Shown one piece after another: positions 23,488 to 28,677 of a stretch of DNA of 64,000 bases. Position numbers and translations under genes: made by a program. Positions within the stretch are counted from its first letter, which is position 1, and every line of letters begins with the position of its first letter. The notes beneath the pieces are model-generated. The model was not told the DNA's origin and made no database searches. It saw only the letters and a program-made list of their open reading frames with translations. Source of the DNA: an uncultured Clostridia bacterium (GTDB lineage: Bacteria; Bacillota; Clostridia; TANB77; CAG-508). Location: NCBI GenBank assembly GCA_934120045.1, contig CAKOTF010000008.1, positions 15,534 to 79,533 on the forward strand, read 5' to 3'.

Positions 23488-24180
23488 TTAAAATATAACT
23501 TCTACATTTTCAAGAACAATTGCCGGTATTTCCTTTATCCGATTGTTCCTGGCATAAAGAACAACTGTAAAACCATCAAGAACAAAATTATTTTTATCAA
23601 CAATTATTGGCTTAGGAAACTTACCACATCTAGTATAATATTCATTTATTTTCTTATACTTATTTGTAGTTGTATCTGGCAAATCAATTGTTATAATTAG
23701 ACTTGATACTGGAATTCTACTGATCCATTCTTTTGGTAACATATGTAACCATCTTATTTGGAACATTTTAATTTTAAAGTATTCTCTTTTAAATTGTTCT
23801 TTTGCACCATCATCTTTTAAGCTCATATAAACTCTAAACTGATCAGGTGTCATATTTTCCTTCTCTTCATTACATTTCTTGCAAGAAGGTACCATATTTT
23901 GTGGAATTGTTGGTCCTCCAAGACCTTTAGCATAAACATGGTCTAAAGTTATCTGACTGGGTTCAACAACTCTTCCGCAATAATAGCATTTTCTTTTTCC
24001 TTTCAGTTTATAAGTTAAATCATACATTATATACTCAAATTTAAATGGCCGTTTTTTCAATTTTAACATTGAGTTTTCTTCAAATGCGATAATATCTTTT
24101 TTGGCTGAAAATGTATAACCTTTTGGAACTTCGATAATCATCAAAAGCCCTCCTTCATTTTTAGTTACATAATATAACAA
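23488..24180 (-). CDS. HNH endonuclease fused to a ParB/Srx-like C-terminal domain
   Basis: CYYCGR...LDHVYAKGLGGPT...NMVPSCKKCNEEK is an HNH/zinc-finger motif. The C-terminus ...KPIIVDKNNFVLDGFTVVLYARNNRIKEIPAIVLE is ParB-N-like. The start may be the internal MIIEVPKG. Confidence 0.55.
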   Translation of the reverse strand: MLYYVTKNEGGLLMIIEVPKGYTFSAKKDIIAFEENSMLKLKKRPFKFEYIMYDLTYKLKGKRKCYYCGRVVEPSQITLDHVYAKGLGGPTIPQNMVPSCKKCNEEKENMTPDQFRVYMSLKDDGAKEQFKREYFKIKMFQIRWLHMLPKEWISRIPVSSLIITIDLPDTTTNKYKKINEYYTRCGKFPKPIIVDKNNFVLDGFTVVLYARNNRIKEIPAIVLENVEVIF

Positions 24181-24938: not shown

Positions 24939-26480
24939 TTATATTACTATTGGCTCTTTGGCTCTTTTTAGTACATATTTAGGTATATATATTTTTTCTC
25001 CAATATTAATTTTATCAGGATTTTCAATTCCATTTACTCTAACTATGTCATCAACTGTACTTCCATATTTTTTCGCAATTTTCCATAATGTATCTCCATC
25101 TTTTACAACATATATTATGACACTGTAATCTTCTAAATCATCTTCAGTTTCTTCTGTTATATTATTAATTGCTGGTATCTCAACATTTCTATATGTCAAT
25201 GTTTCAAAATTCAAATCTACATTTGCATCAATTGTTCCACTCTGATTTGTAAATTCTTGTGTTCCAACTTCTATTTTTGTACTTGTATTACAATTGTTTT
25301 CTACTCCTTCTATTGTTTGAGTAAATGGTATTGTTATTGTTTTACTATTTACTCCTATTGTTGATATATCTGTATATATTAAGTTTACTTCCAGCTCTCC
25401 TTCTAATGCTATTTTTCCACTTAATCTATTTTCTTTGGTTATAGATGTTTGTATTGATGTATTTATAATTTCTCCACTTCCTATTTCAGGCATATTTACT
25501 TTTTCTCTTATTTGACATGTATTTTTCAATGTGTTTCTATCTGATGTTGTTTTTAATGTTTTTAAATCATAATTTACTCTTTCACCTGGGCAATATAAAT
25601 CTTGTATTACTTGTATTTCTTTTTCTTCATATGAAATACAATTTATCTCAACTTCAACCTCTAAATAAACTGTATGTTCTTCTATTGAATTTGGTTTTAT
25701 TATTAAATTTTTTATTAAATATGTTGTATCACATATATTTTCTTCTTTGATATCTGGCATATCTATAAAACCAACTAATGGAACTCTGCCTATTGTTTTG
25801 CAAATTCTTCCATCATCTGTTAAATACACAAGTTTTAATTCTATTTCTGATTTTGCAAGTATTTTGTTATAACTTATTTTTATATCTTTATCAACTAAAC
25901 TTATTGTTGCATTTAATATTTCTGCTAAATTGTCTGTATTTGGAATTGATACATTTTCTTTCACATATGTTTTATTATTTCCTTCACATAATAATGAGTT
26001 TATTTTTTCTTTTTTACTTAAAATTTGCATATTAACATCATTTACATTTGTTGTTATTTCCGCTTCTTCATGTAAACGTATTTTTATTGAAATTTCCACA
26101 TTTGCCTTTATTCCTATTTTTCTTCCATTTATTACTTTACATTCAAAATTTTTTATATTTGGTTCAATATCAACAATCATTCCTATTTGTAATTCTGGAA
26201 CAACTATTGTTTCTGAAAAATCAAGTGTTGTATTTAATCCTCTTAAATTATTTTTATCTCCATCTGCTAAATACATTATATATGAAACAATATTTCCTTC
26301 TAATCTTAATTTTCCTTCAAAAACTTCTTTTTTATATATACATATGTTTCCATCTGTATTAATTGTATTTAATATATCTGGCTTTGAGTCTGGAACTATC
26401 ATATCTCCTTGAACTACTATTTGTTCTTTTTTCTCACAAATTATCTTATTAATTTTTATAGTTTCTTTTGTTATATCCAT
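24939..26480 (-). CDS. SpoVID/SipL-like sporulation protein (repeated SPOCS/DUF3794-like region plus C-terminal LysM domain)
   Basis: 513 aa; the C-terminal YVVKDGDTLWKIAKKYGSTVDDIVRVNGIENPDKINIGEKIYIP is LysM. Stop overlaps the yunB start. Confidence 0.5.
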   Translation of the reverse strand: MDITKETIKINKIICEKKEQIVVQGDMIVPDSKPDILNTINTDGNICIYKKEVFEGKLRLEGNIVSYIMYLADGDKNNLRGLNTTLDFSETIVVPELQIGMIVDIEPNIKNFECKVINGRKIGIKANVEISIKIRLHEEAEITTNVNDVNMQILSKKEKINSLLCEGNNKTYVKENVSIPNTDNLAEILNATISLVDKDIKISYNKILAKSEIELKLVYLTDDGRICKTIGRVPLVGFIDMPDIKEENICDTTYLIKNLIIKPNSIEEHTVYLEVEVEINCISYEEKEIQVIQDLYCPGERVNYDLKTLKTTSDRNTLKNTCQIREKVNMPEIGSGEIINTSIQTSITKENRLSGKIALEGELEVNLIYTDISTIGVNSKTITIPFTQTIEGVENNCNTSTKIEVGTQEFTNQSGTIDANVDLNFETLTYRNVEIPAINNITEETEDDLEDYSVIIYVVKDGDTLWKIAKKYGSTVDDIVRVNGIENPDKINIGEKIYIPKYVLKRAKEPIVI

Positions 26481-26599
26481 ATGAATAACCTCCTATATAT
26501 TTTTGTTTATTAATTTATATGGACATTTAATTTATTTTATTACTTTTTTGAATATTTTTTTTATTTTTGTTTATACTATTTTAGTAAGAGGTGATATCT

Positions 26600-26725
26600 T
26601 TGACAAATATCAATTGTTGTTTAGATTGTGTTTATCAAAAAGATGGAAAATGCTCTTATGATATTATTTCTAATATAATAATATGTTCTAATTCTGAATG
26701 TGCATATTATAAAAGTCCCAATTAA
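26600..26725 (+). CDS. unannotated 41-aa cysteine-rich small protein (6 Cys; possibly DUF1540-like)
   Basis: TTG start 6 nt after SD AAGAGGTGA; translation MTNINCCLDCVYQKDGKCSYDIISNIIICSNSECAYYKSPN*. A perfect 11-bp terminator hairpin overlaps the stop. Confidence 0.45.
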   Translation: MTNINCCLDCVYQKDGKCSYDIISNIIICSNSECAYYKSPN

Positions 26726-26750
26726 AGTAAATTTAATTGGGATTTTTCTT
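26716..26750. terminator. bidirectional terminator (tcccaattaaa-gtaaa-tttaattggga + TTTTT)
   Basis: Perfect 11-bp stem; serves the small plus-strand ORF and is placed to terminate spoIIP on the minus strand. Confidence 0.6.
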
Positions 26751-26801: not shown

Positions 26802-27965
26802 TCAATTCTTTATTTTTTCAAATACTTTTGCTAAATATTTCATACTTGTTAAACTTTGCTCTAGTGTATTTCCAGTTGAACCAACTTCTATTATTACTGC
26901 TGCTTTTCCTAGATGTTGATTATATCTTGAATTTCTTACTATCATTGGTTTAAACAATCCTGGATACATTTCATTTGCAATTTCTTGAACTTTTATTGCA
27001 AATCTAAGATTGTTTTGCCAATTTGGATGATATAATCCTCCTCCATTTGTTCCTATTACAAACATTAATTGTGATGCAACATCATCACCTATTTTAACAC
27101 TTGGATCATAATCACTTTTACTTCCAATTGCATCTCTGTGTAAATCTATTATTATATCACTTGGATTTTCTTGCAAATCTTTTTTTACACTTTCTAATGA
27201 CCTAGAATATGAGCCTGTATATGCAGGATAATCATGATATGTTTTGTCATGATTTACCTTAAATCCAAATCCAAGTAAATAATTTGTAAGTTCATCTCCT
27301 AATCTTGCAACAGTATAATTTAAATCTGTTGTTCTAAAATTTCCTGTTTGTTCATATGGATATGTTTCACTTGGTGTATAACTTTCACATGTGTGTGTGT
27401 GAAATATTAATATATTATTTTTATCTATGTCTAATTCTGTATTCATAATATCATCTGTTATATCAAATGATGTCTCATTTTTTATTTTTACACCATTTAT
27501 TTCATTGTTAAAACTTTCTGATATTGGATTTTTAGTTACTATTTGTGTTTCTACATTTTCTAATATATTACTTACATCTACATTTGAGTTATTATTATCT
27601 TTTTCTTCTTCAACAGGCTTATTTTCTATATTTTCACTTGGAGTTTCTACAGGATTTTCTTCTATTTTTTCACTTTCTTTTAATCTAGAAAGTTCAACGC
27701 CTAATATTCTTTCTGAAAAGTCTTTTGTATCTTCTTCATTTTCTTCTTTTATTGTTGTATTTGATTTTGAAACAATTTCATTTATAGCAGGTATTTCATT
27801 ATTTAAACAATTTACTAATTTGCTTGATAAATTTATTTTGAAAACTTCTGTTGATTTTAAATTTTGTATAAATCTTGTAACAATAAAAAGCAATATTAAA
27901 GTTACTATTAATATTGCTATTTTTTTTATTGAACCTTTTGCATTTATTATTGTAACATTAAACAT
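26802..27965 (-). CDS. spoIIP: stage II sporulation protein P (amidase-like)
   Basis: ILIFHTHTCESY and IIDLHRDAIG motifs; N-terminal TM and acidic linker. Confidence 0.8.
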   Translation of the reverse strand: MFNVTIINAKGSIKKIAILIVTLILLFIVTRFIQNLKSTEVFKINLSSKLVNCLNNEIPAINEIVSKSNTTIKEENEEDTKDFSERILGVELSRLKESEKIEENPVETPSENIENKPVEEEKDNNNSNVDVSNILENVETQIVTKNPISESFNNEINGVKIKNETSFDITDDIMNTELDIDKNNILIFHTHTCESYTPSETYPYEQTGNFRTTDLNYTVARLGDELTNYLLGFGFKVNHDKTYHDYPAYTGSYSRSLESVKKDLQENPSDIIIDLHRDAIGSKSDYDPSVKIGDDVASQLMFVIGTNGGGLYHPNWQNNLRFAIKVQEIANEMYPGLFKPMIVRNSRYNQHLGKAAVIIEVGSTGNTLEQSLTSMKYLAKVFEKIKN

Positions 27966-28029
27966 ATAACATACCCTTCTTTTGAATTTCTCTTATATAT
28001 ATTATATGTTTATTACAAGTATTTTAGAA

Positions 28030-28677
28030 CTATAATAATCGTGGTTTAAGCTCTAAATAAATTGGCTTTTCTTCTCTTATCATTGTACTTTTCCCATGTC
28101 CTGGATATACAATTGTTTCATCTGGTAATACCATTAATTTTTTGGTAATTGAATTTATTACATCTTCAAAATTTCCTGTTGGTACATCTGTTCTTCCCCA
28201 AGTTCCTCTAAATAATGTATCTCCTGAAAATAATAATTTTTCTTCTTCACAATATAAGCAAGAACCTCCTGAAGTATGTCCTGGTGTGTGTATTACTCTA
28301 AATTCAAGATTTCCTAAATGTATTAAGTCTCCATCATCAACTCTTGAATCAACTTGAATAACTAATCCTTCAAGTCCTATATATGTTGTTAAACTTATAT
28401 TAGGGTCTAATAAATTTTCTGCTGTATTTCTATGTGCTAATATTTTTCCACCTTTTCTTTCTTTTAATTCTTTTACTCCTCCAATATGATCTCCATGACA
28501 ATGTGTTAAATAAATATATTTTAAATTTGCATTTAATATATCTAACATTTCTACAATTTTGTCAACATCTCCTGCAGGATCTATTACCATTGTTTCTTTT
28601 GATTTCTCGTCTTGTACAATATAACAATTTGTTACATCTCCAACCCATGAGTCTATCCTTAGTTCCTTTAATATCAT
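28030..28677 (-). CDS. MBL-fold metallo-hydrolase (glyoxalase II-like)
   Basis: THCHGDHIGG motif; 215 aa. Confidence 0.7.
   Translation of the reverse strand: MILKELRIDSWVGDVTNCYIVQDEKSKETMVIDPAGDVDKIVEMLDILNANLKYIYLTHCHGDHIGGVKELKERKGGKILAHRNTAENLLDPNISLTTYIGLEGLVIQVDSRVDDGDLIHLGNLEFRVIHTPGHTSGGSCLYCEEEKLLFSGDTLFRGTWGRTDVPTGNFEDVINSITKKLMVLPDETIVYPGHGKSTMIREEKPIYLELKPRLL

What the first reader, a model, noticed from the sequence alone, without database searches (positions are those of the whole stretch)
26585..26750. Unannotated 41-aa cysteine-rich ORF with its own RBS and perfect terminator
TTG at 26600 sits 6 nt after AAGAGGTGA and encodes MTNINCCLDCVYQKDGKCSYDIISNIIICSNSECAYYKSPN, with 6 Cys including CC..C and C-x4-C-like spacing. 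It ends inside an 11-bp perfect hairpin plus T-run. It is the only other plus-strand coding candidate in the window, lies between the SipL-like gene and spoIIP, and falls under the 60-aa track cutoff. It may be a small metal-binding or disulfide-rich protein; DUF1540-type small Cys proteins occur in sporeformers.
Basis: seen in the sequence. Interest (0 to 1): 0.55.

Follow-up and report, generated by a model that had tools for sequence, protein, structure and literature searches.

The report
Conserved forespore-type four-cysteine mini-protein gene
The 41-codon reading frame is a real, strongly conserved gene for a tiny four-cysteine protein found widely in spore-forming Clostridia; its promoter looks like those read only inside the developing spore, public databases give it a wrong enzyme name, and its function is unknown.

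Summary
TTG 26600 to TAA 26725 encodes a 41-aa protein behind a strong Shine-Dalgarno site, and it ends inside an 11-bp hairpin.

It is a real gene. Intact orthologues occur in all 80 retained species-representative genomes (250 matched). A full HMMER scan found 125 clusters at 50% identity. Codons 2-21 give pN/pS 0.195. The hairpin sequences are not conserved.

Only four of the six cysteines are invariant across the family: C6, C10, C18 and C34, spaced C-x3-C-x7-C-x13-20-C.

The conserved upstream promoter, TG(A/T)ATA-17-(C/T/A)ATA(C/A)TA, classifies as forespore type (sigmaF/G) in 73 of 78 loci. In the same genomes spoIIP and sipL classify as sigmaE.

The terminator is bidirectional and shared with the convergent spoIIP.

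The commonest neighbour is nth upstream (66 of 80 loci), not spoIIP. The window species lost that linkage.

No Pfam or NCBIfam model reaches threshold. Profile comparison shows a weak but above-null similarity to DUF1540, the domain of the sigmaG-dependent C. difficile protein CdeA.

NCBI already annotates the ORF in conspecific MAGs, wrongly, as 'hydroxymyristoyl-ACP dehydratase'.

The most likely function is a soluble forespore Cys4 metal-binding mini-protein. This is inferred, not shown.

Interest is moderate to low.

The parts
26549..26554 (+). -35 element TGAATA of a forespore-type (sigmaF/sigmaG-like) promoter
   Evidence: Seen in sequence. The pattern T[GA][ATC]ATA-N16-18-NATANTA lies within 80 nt upstream in 60 of 78 orthologous loci, against 0.011 expected per 80 nt. 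The PWM places the -35 at 26549-26555.
26572..26578 (+). -10 element TATACTA, 17 nt after the -35; predicted transcription start about 26584-26586 (inferred)
   Evidence: A PWM classifier trained on mapped C. difficile promoters of 78 family loci forespore type, mean 11.7 bits against 5.4 for sigmaE and 1.8 for sigmaK.
26586..26594 (+). Shine-Dalgarno sequence AAGAGGTGA, 5 nt before the start codon
   Evidence: (A)GAGGTGA(T) is conserved at the same distance in nearly all 79 distinct orthologous sequences.
26600..26725 (+). Coding sequence: TTG start, 41 codons, TAA stop. Product is a 4.6 kDa, pI 4.7, non-hydrophobic protein. Invariant residues are I4, C6, C10, G16, C18, C34; N5 and Q13 are over 90% conserved.
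26711..26747 (.). Bidirectional intrinsic terminator: A-tract, 11-bp stem (26716-26726 and 26732-26742), 5-nt loop, T-run 26743-26747. It ends the small gene on the + strand and the convergent spoIIP on the - strand. The 5' arm encodes the last residues and the stop codon.
   Evidence: Comparable hairpins of unrelated sequence follow or overlap the 3' end in 59 of 77 loci.

Best explanation
This is a real, independently transcribed gene for a roughly 40-aa soluble protein. The protein belongs to a widespread, uncharacterised Clostridia family with the signature M-T-N-I-N-C-x3-C-x-Y-Q-x-D-G-x-C ... C-A-Y-F/Y.

In the window's lineage the gene is read from a forespore-type (sigmaF and/or sigmaG) promoter. 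The leader is very short and holds a strong Shine-Dalgarno site and a conserved TTG start. Transcription ends at a hairpin shared with spoIIP.

The protein has no signal peptide and no hydrophobic segment, so it should stay in the forespore cytoplasm. There, its four invariant cysteines most likely hold one metal ion (Zn, or Fe in these anaerobes). That would fold a roughly 35-residue knuckle that acts by binding a partner or as a spore-core component, not as an enzyme.

The residues after C-A-Y-F/Y are a variable tail, partly dictated by the terminator stem. The family is probably a distant, re-spaced relative of the DUF1540 domain.

Shown: the ORF is coding, four cysteines are conserved, the promoter motif and ribosome-binding site are conserved, and the terminator is present.
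Inferred: which sigma factor reads the promoter, where the protein sits, that it binds metal, and that it is homologous to DUF1540.
For: Coding:
- 250 loci in GTDB species representatives encode a relative. All 80 retained loci, and 15 loci fetched by exact-protein look-up, have an intact frame.
- A full HMMER scan of 1.84 billion representatives found 125 clusters at E < 1e-3. Nearly all are stand-alone proteins of 40-60 aa.
- Amino acids stay fixed while third codon positions vary: I4 ATT/ATC/ATA 35/32/12, G16 uses four codons, C18 TGT/TGC 48/31.
- pN/pS is 0.195 over 3081 pairs.
- The flanks are only 22-43% identical, against 80-92% for the ORF core.
- No Rfam family matches.

Independent unit:
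- The gene kept its promoter and ribosome-binding site when its left neighbour changed from nth to sipL.

Promoter class:
- The strict motif is present in 60 of 78 loci, against 0.86 expected in total.
- The PWM classifier was built from the mapped promoters of Saujet et al. 2013 (PMC3789822, Tables S6 and S7).
- Leave-one-out accuracy is 36/41 for forespore, 39/47 for sigmaE and 19/23 for sigmaK.
- Family loci classify 73 of 78 as forespore type, at 11.7 bits; the training set's own mean is 11.0.
- Controls in the same genomes: spoIIP is sigmaE in 30 of 31 (13.9 bits), sipL in 2 of 2, yunB in 3 of 3. The housekeeping genes MBL and nth score 5-7 bits under every model.

Cysteines: I4, C6, C10, G16, C18 and C34 are invariant in 150 sequences.

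Soluble: GRAVY is -0.12 and the invariant N-terminus is polar.

DUF1540 link. The DUF1540 protein CD2375 (CdeA) is sigmaG-dependent in C. difficile. DUF1540 tracks the endospore phenotype.

Sporulation neighbours in another clade: ytxC, DUF378 and a SASP gene.
Against: - There is no expression, proteomic or biochemical data for any member, and no paper mentions the family.
- The sigma assignment rests on sequence motifs from one other species. sigmaF and sigmaG cannot be told apart here.
- In distant clades the promoter class is ambiguous. L096, L099, L106 and L108 score similarly under all models, and L103 scores best as sigmaK at 14.2 bits.
- AlphaFold2 gave pLDDT 60 and 56 with 90 and 150 sequences, so there is no model showing the four cysteines together.
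- The Cys spacing is not a classical zinc-ribbon or ferredoxin pattern (my own knowledge).
- The window protein gets no DUF1540 hit at E <= 10. The best member is below the gathering score of 22.1 bits. hhalign probability is only 7-17%.
Confidence: 0.6

Rival explanations
1. Mother-cell cysteine-rich spore-surface protein. The peptide would be made in the mother cell and cross-linked through its cysteines into the coat or exosporium, like the C. difficile proteins CdeA, CdeC and CdeM.
For: The only characterised DUF1540 protein, CdeA, was found in the exosporium (PMC7677010). In one distant clade (L103) the best promoter match is sigmaK-like at 14.2 bits. The window protein has two extra cysteines.
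Against: In the window's clade 73 of 78 promoters classify as forespore type, 5 as sigmaE and none as sigmaK. The adjacent spoIIP and sipL score as sigmaE under the same classifier. CdeA's own gene is sigmaG-dependent. The extra cysteines C7 and C29 are not conserved.
Confidence: 0.15
2. Small forespore regulator. The Cys4 knuckle would bind and inhibit or tune a larger protein such as a sigma factor, or the neighbouring Fe-S glycosylase Nth. It would work like the Zn-binding mini-proteins CsfB/Gin and Fin of Bacillus.
For: Its size, four invariant cysteines and forespore-type promoter match the general description of CsfB and Fin (my own knowledge). CsfB is absent from C. difficile and some other Clostridia (PMC4383634). 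nth lies upstream on the same strand in 66 of 80 loci.
Against: No sequence similarity. No Gin or Fin Pfam family appears among the hits of 90 members at E <= 1. The Cys spacing lacks CxxC pairs. The nth linkage is lost in the window species and in other clades. No interaction data exist.
Confidence: 0.12
3. Precursor of a ribosomally made, modified peptide (SCIFF/ranthipeptide, sactipeptide or lanthipeptide type). Its cysteines would be cross-linked by a maturase.
For: Six cysteines in 41 residues recalls SCIFF, 'six cysteines in forty-five residues', a Clostridia-wide family (my own knowledge).
Against: No NCBIfam hit, and none to the SCIFF model, for the window protein or for 90 members. 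No radical-SAM or other maturase gene is next to it in any of the contexts read. The most conserved part is the extreme N-terminus, not a C-terminal core behind a variable leader. No export signal or transporter is present.
Confidence: 0.03
4. Chance reading frame. The conserved feature would be only the spoIIP terminator or a non-coding RNA.
For: The window is 24% G+C, so short open frames are common. The hairpin also serves spoIIP.
Against: The frame is intact in all loci examined. pN/pS is 0.195. Synonymous variation sits at invariant residues. The family persists where spoIIP is not a neighbour. Hairpin sequences are not conserved. No Rfam family matches.
Confidence: 0.02

Closest known systems
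DUF1540 (Pfam PF07561), e.g. C. difficile CdeA/CD2375 and the Bacillus/Paenibacillus 'DUF1540 domain-containing' proteins
   Same: Both are small, found in sporeformers and have four conserved cysteines. The local motif is parallel: [IV]-x-C-x3/4-C-x-[YF]-[QW]-x2-G-x1/2-C-x3-4-I ... S-x-C-x-[YT]-F. Global hhalign puts all four Cys in register. CD2375 is sigmaG-dependent, and this family has a forespore-type promoter.
   Different: The spacing is C-x3-C-x7-C rather than C-x4-C-x8-C. The last site has one Cys rather than CC. The connecting loop is short. The window protein gives no Pfam hit, and members reach at most sub-threshold scores. The function of DUF1540 is itself unknown.
FabZ, (3R)-hydroxymyristoyl-ACP dehydratase: the name NCBI gives this family
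   Same: Nothing but the label.
   Different: FabZ is a hot-dog-fold enzyme of roughly 150 aa (my own knowledge). This protein is 41 aa, and no FabZ/FabA family appears in the Pfam or NCBIfam scans. The name is a propagated annotation error.
CsfB/Gin and Fin, small Zn-binding forespore regulators of Bacillus
   Same: Size class, several cysteines, and forespore expression. This is a functional analogy only.
   Different: No detectable sequence relationship. There are no CxxC pairs. No evidence of sigma-factor binding exists.
SCIFF (TIGR03973) ranthipeptide precursors of Clostridia
   Same: About 45 aa, six cysteines in the window copy, and a Clostridia distribution.
   Different: No model hit. 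No adjacent radical-SAM maturase. Only four cysteines are conserved, and they are spread along the whole chain.

Membership tests
DUF1540 (PF07561) | Score at or above Pfam's gathering threshold (22.1 bits) | tested here: not met
   The window protein gives no hit at E <= 10. The family consensus scores 15.0 bits, E 0.027. 15 of 90 members hit, with best E 7.6e-4, all scanned individually being below 22.1 bits. A positive control, a DUF1540-like sequence I wrote from memory, scored 55.8 bits; tblastn with it then led to real DUF1540 genes.
DUF1540 (PF07561) | Four conserved cysteines in the order C...C...C...C, with hydrophobic and aromatic residues flanking them | tested here: inconclusive
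   Four invariant Cys are present and align with the DUF1540 Cys in global hhalign. Two one-residue gaps are needed (C-x3-C against C-x4-C, x7 against x8).
DUF1540 (PF07561) | Profile-profile similarity beyond chance | tested here: inconclusive
   hhalign P is 0.0054 against 8 sequences and 0.0015 against 61 sequences. The score of 20.0 compares with a column-shuffle null of 10.0 +/- 2.4 (maximum 18.6, 0 of 150 as high) and 9.0 for the reversed alignment. Probability is only 7-17% and only 25 columns align locally.
DUF1540 (PF07561) | Shared three-dimensional fold | not testable with these tools
   The AF2 models have pLDDT 60 and 56. The AlphaFold-database fold library was unavailable. The PDB sequence search found nothing.
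FabZ / hydroxymyristoyl-ACP dehydratase | Hot-dog fold domain (FabA/FabZ Pfam or NCBIfam model) of about 150 aa | tested here: not met
   The protein is 41 aa. No such family appears in Pfam or NCBIfam for the window protein or for 90 members.
SCIFF ranthipeptide precursor (TIGR03973) | Match to the SCIFF model, and an adjacent radical-SAM maturase | tested here: not met
   No NCBIfam hit. No radical-SAM gene is adjacent. The only one seen is a HemN-like gene about 4.8 kb away in L008-L014, separated by eight genes.
CsfB/Gin and Fin anti-sigma mini-proteins | Match to the Gin or Fin Pfam models; paired CxxC motifs | tested here: not met
   Neither family is among the Pfam hits of 90 members at E <= 1. 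The conserved core has no CxxC pair.
Forespore (sigmaF/sigmaG) regulon | Promoter matching the forespore consensus at the right distance from the start codon | tested here: met
   TGAATA-17-TATACTA ends 21 nt before the TTG. 73 of 78 orthologues class as forespore type, and the controls behave as expected.
Forespore (sigmaF/sigmaG) regulon | Expression dependent on sigF or sigG | not testable with these tools
   This needs transcript data from a sporulating culture and sigma-factor mutants.

The most novel reading that the evidence does not exclude
The family is a previously unrecognised class of forespore regulatory mini-proteins in Clostridia. It would be a metal-folded Cys4 knuckle that binds a larger partner. 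The partner could be a sporulation sigma factor, filling the role that CsfB/Gin plays in Bacillus and that C. difficile and some other Clostridia lack. Or it could be the Fe-S DNA glycosylase Nth, whose gene precedes it in 66 of 80 genomes, to prepare spore DNA repair. The conserved weak TTG start would keep its dose low.
Probability: 0.08. Interest if true: 0.7.

Novelty: new variant of a known kind. Interest (0 to 1): 0.35.

Why it matters
Small proteins are routinely missed or misnamed. This one is conserved across many uncultured gut Clostridia and several cultured genera, and it has no curated family model. NCBI gives it an enzyme name that cannot be right.

The comparative data turn a 41-codon frame into a defined family with a four-cysteine signature, a candidate cell-type-specific promoter and a conserved weak start codon. 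If the forespore assignment holds, it adds a widespread component to the clostridial forespore programme, which is much less charted than that of Bacillus.

It also gives a handle on the equally uncharacterised DUF1540 domain.

The practical gains are a corrected annotation and a seed alignment for a family model.

Tried and rejected
- Single-sequence Pfam and NCBIfam scans found nothing. NCBIfam on 90 members gave only scattered noise. PHROGs gave nothing and tblastn against plasmids gave no match, so there is no mobile-element link.
- The PDB sequence search returned only chance hits to a K+ channel PAS domain at E about 1.
- Two AlphaFold2 runs, with 90 and 150 sequences, reached pLDDT 60 and 56. 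I did not use them for fold search because low-confidence models give meaningless matches. The AFDB library was unavailable anyway.
- The spoIIP association was rejected as a functional clue. It holds only in the close clade.
- I looked for DUF1540 or SASP genes in the window and related loci as internal references. None was found.
- My strict promoter regex turned out to be insensitive on C. difficile promoters (3 of 30 sigmaG, 2 of 47 sigmaE), so I replaced it with a PWM classifier with leave-one-out testing and same-genome controls.
- A literature search for the promoter words CATACTA and TGAATA returned only irrelevant sequence strings. Searches for the NCBI name and for peptide strings found no paper on the family.
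- I could not establish whether C. difficile has a member. The cluster look-ups gave no C. difficile record.
- TTGACA-16-TAGATT inside the ORF was considered as an internal sigmaA promoter and set aside. Both hexamers are fixed by conserved codons, and it would drive a transcript lacking the start codon.

Full report
**1. What is in the sequence**

The window is AT-rich (about 24% G+C around the site) and almost all genes lie on the minus strand.
- At 26586-26594 lies AAGAGGTGA, followed by five bases and TTG at 26600.
- The frame stays open for 41 codons to TAA at 26723-26725 and reads (M)TNINCCLDCVYQKDGKCSYDIISNIIICSNSECAYYKSPN.
- The mechanical ORF list offers GTG 26591 as the start. That triplet is part of the Shine-Dalgarno sequence, and relatives with ATG starts begin exactly at M-T-N-I-N-C. 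TTG 26600 is therefore the start.
- The stop codon sits in the 5' arm of an 11-bp perfect hairpin (26716-26726 and 26732-26742), flanked by an A-tract and a T-run.
- The hairpin folds well on both strands: -17.5 kcal/mol, z -5.7, and -15.9 kcal/mol, z -4.5. The scan scored it as a minus-strand terminator.
- It is therefore a bidirectional terminator shared with the convergent spoIIP gene (26802-27965, -).
- The left neighbour, divergently transcribed, is sipL (24939-26480), followed by yunB. To the right of spoIIP lie an MBL-fold hydrolase gene and relA.

**2. Is it a gene?**

Yes.
- A word-indexed protein search found a 98%-identical 41-aa protein and 78%-identical proteins of 54-57 aa.
- A scan of one genome per GTDB species found 250 loci encoding a relative. 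All 80 retained loci carry an intact frame of 40-53 codons, and so do 15 loci fetched by exact-protein look-up.
- A full HMMER pass over 1.84 billion cluster representatives found 125 clusters below E = 1e-3. Nearly all are stand-alone proteins of 40-60 aa with the same N-terminus.
- Among 79 distinct nucleotide versions the amino acids I4, N5, C6, C10, Y12, Q13, G16 and C18 never change, while their third codon positions do: I4 ATT/ATC/ATA 35/32/12, G16 uses four codons, C18 TGT/TGC 48/31.
- Nei-Gojobori pN/pS on codons 2-21 is 0.195 over 3081 pairs.
- The ORF core is 80-92% identical in DNA between species whose flanks are 22-43% identical.
- No Rfam family matches the region.

It comes out the opposite way. 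Terminator-like hairpins follow or overlap the 3' end in 59 of 77 loci, but their sequences are unrelated.

**3. Anatomy of the family**

- In alignments of 90 and 150 members the invariant positions are I4, C6, C10, G16, C18 and C34. N5 and Q13 are above 90%.
- The signature is M-T-N-I-N-C-x3-C-x-Y-Q-x-D-G-x-C-x(13-20)-C-A-Y-F/Y.
- Everything after C-A-Y-F/Y varies in length and sequence. In many loci it is encoded by the 5' arm of the terminator hairpin, so it is probably an unconstrained tail.
- The window protein is 4.6 kDa, pI 4.7, GRAVY -0.12, with a polar invariant N-terminus. I infer that it has no signal peptide or membrane segment and is cytoplasmic.

**4. Regulation**

Aligning the upstream regions shows a conserved promoter directly before the ribosome-binding site: TG(A/T)ATA, 17 nt, (C/T/A)ATA(C/A)TA. 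In the window this is TGAATA 26549-26554 and TATACTA 26572-26578.

A strict form of the motif is present within 80 nt upstream in 60 of 78 loci, where 0.011 per locus is expected. Most of the rest are one-base variants.

From my own knowledge, this matches the Bacillus forespore sigmaG consensus (TGAATA, 17-18 nt, CATACTA) and not the mother-cell -10 box CATA-A-T.

I tested this with data.
- I took the experimentally mapped C. difficile promoters of Saujet et al. 2013 (PMC3789822, Tables S6 and S7) and trained two-block weight matrices for forespore (sigmaF+G), sigmaE and sigmaK promoters.
- Leave-one-out accuracy is 36/41, 39/47 and 19/23.
- The family's promoters classify as forespore type in 73 of 78 loci. 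The mean score is 11.7 bits (the training set's own mean is 11.0), against 5.4 for sigmaE and 1.8 for sigmaK.
- Controls from the same genomes behave as expected. spoIIP upstream regions are sigmaE in 30 of 31 (13.9 bits), sipL in 2 of 2 and yunB in 3 of 3. The housekeeping MBL and nth upstream regions score only 5-7 bits under every model.

The 119-bp sipL/small-gene spacer therefore appears to hold two divergent, cell-type-specific promoters. One is a sigmaE-like promoter for sipL (-35 at 26543-26537, -10 at 26520-26512). The other is a forespore-type promoter for the small gene.

Caveats:
- sigmaF and sigmaG cannot be separated here.
- In distant clades the call is ambiguous. L103 scores best as sigmaK.
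- There is no transcript evidence.

**5. Translation signal**

- The start codon is TTG in 74 of 79 distinct sequences (GTG 3, ATG 2). It sits behind an extended Shine-Dalgarno sequence, (A)GAGGTGA(T).
- More distant clades use ATG.
- A weak start held fixed while synonymous sites diverge (mean pS 0.47) suggests that the dose is kept low. This is inference.

**6. Genomic context**

That is a local arrangement.
- The convergent spoIIP neighbour is found only in relatives at 68% identity or more.
- sipL is the left neighbour only in the window species group.
- The most frequent neighbour is nth (endonuclease III), upstream on the same strand in 66 of 80 loci and within 200 nt in 44. In many loci with the shortest gaps the -35 box lies inside the 3' end of nth.
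- One database protein is an Nth C-terminus read through into the small ORF (P0107).
- The window has no nth in 64 kb.
- Other clades place the gene after mfd-prsA, or between ytxC/DUF6873 and DUF378 plus a SASP gene. In Garciella it sits among unrelated genes.
- The gene kept its promoter through these rearrangements, which marks it as an independent unit. I treat the nth linkage as clade-level synteny and not as proof of a shared function.

**7. Comparison with known families**

*No curated model.* Pfam, NCBIfam and PHROGs do not reach threshold for the window protein.

*NCBI name.*
- NCBI names the ORF in MAGs of the same species (HCQ55358.1 and others), and in cultured Herbivorax, Garciella and Ruminiclostridium, 'hydroxymyristoyl-ACP dehydratase'.
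- A 41-aa protein with no FabZ domain cannot be that enzyme. No NCBIfam model supports the name, so it is a propagated error.

- 15 of 90 members give weak DUF1540 hits, best E 7.6e-4.
- The family consensus aligns to positions 2-38 of the 40-position model at 15 bits. That is below the 22.1-bit cut-off.
- I collected true DUF1540 proteins and ran profile-profile comparison. The local score is 20.0 (P 0.0015), against a null of 10.0 +/- 2.4 from 150 column shuffles (none as high) and 9.0 for the reversed alignment.
- The global alignment puts all four cysteines, and the C-A-Y-F against C-C-H-T-F ends, in register. It needs two one-residue gaps.
- This is suggestive of distant homology but does not meet the family's threshold. 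I do not file the protein as a member.
- The only studied DUF1540 protein, C. difficile CdeA/CD2375, is sigmaG-dependent. The domain tracks the endospore phenotype. Both facts fit the picture here.

*Others.* SCIFF-type peptide precursors and the CsfB/Gin and Fin mini-regulators were considered and fail their sequence tests. A functional analogy to the regulators remains possible.

**8. Structure**

AlphaFold2 with 90 and then 150 sequences gave pLDDT 60 and 56. The PDB holds no sequence relative. The AlphaFold-database fold library was unavailable. Metal binding by the four cysteines is therefore an inference from invariance and cytoplasmic location, not a result.

**9. Verdict**

- four cysteines are conserved, not six;
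- the terminator is shared;
- the ORF is already annotated, under a wrong name;
- nth, not spoIIP, is the commonest neighbour.

The added value is the definition of a widespread clostridial mini-protein family with a forespore-type promoter and a conserved TTG start, probably a re-spaced relative of DUF1540.

This is a new variant of a known kind. It is of moderate to low interest unless it proves to be a regulator.

Noticed in passing
L020-L095 (e.g. L008 4297-4938 then 5001-5165); absent from the window: The endonuclease III gene nth lies upstream of the small gene on the same strand in 66 of 80 species representatives, within 200 nt in 44. In many of the loci with the shortest gaps, the small gene's -35 box is embedded in the 3' end of nth, which encodes its Fe-S cysteine motif. 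One database protein (P0107) is an Nth C-terminus read through into the small ORF.
   Followed up: partly
window 26600-26605 and all orthologues: The start codon is TTG in 74 of 79 distinct sequences, and the next codon is ACA in 69 of 79, so the gene begins with TTGACA. The weak start is kept although synonymous sites elsewhere have diverged. The reason is unknown; dose control is a guess.
   Followed up: partly
window 26711-26725 and the 3' ends of orthologues in L016-L095: The variable C-terminal tails of the family are often encoded by the 5' arm of the terminator hairpin, which starts 11-25 nt before the stop codon. RNA structure, not protein function, seems to shape those residues.
   Followed up: partly
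window 26512-26543 (-) and 28001-28030 (-): There are sigmaE-like promoters upstream of sipL (GTAATAA, 16 nt, ATATAAATT; 12.4 bits) and spoIIP (GTTCTAA, 14 nt, ACATATAAT; 14.0 bits). The sipL/small-gene spacer would then carry a mother-cell and a forespore promoter back to back.
   Followed up: partly
window 23488-24180 (-): An HNH endonuclease gene lies downstream of yunB. In one conspecific contig (L001) a phage-type integrase gene lies next to it, where the other contigs have a cation ATPase gene. This hints at a variable or mobile segment.
   Followed up: no
window ORF compared with L028 and L039: Between the window and the next species group, the ORF core is 90-92% identical in DNA and pS is only 0.05, lower than pN at about 0.1. 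The neighbouring SpoIIP proteins are only about 63% identical. With about 10 synonymous sites this may be noise, or it may be extra constraint on the mRNA.
   Followed up: no
L103 about 3920-3960 (upstream of P0155): In the Ruminiclostridium-like clade the best promoter match upstream of the family member is sigmaK-like (14.2 bits), not forespore-like. The compartment of expression may differ between clades.
   Followed up: no
P0005, P0006, P0016 (database proteins): Some database entries clustered with the family are artefacts or variants. P0006 is a 106-aa read-through form of the window protein with the stop codon lost. P0005 is a chimeric N-terminus joined to the last 23 residues. P0016 is an unrelated 405-aa flagellar-hook-like protein placed in the same 90% cluster.
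   Followed up: no
L064 and L066 (two contigs of the same MAG, CANQWU01): The same small gene with an identical upstream region appears on two contigs of one MAG. This is either a duplication or assembly redundancy.
   Followed up: no
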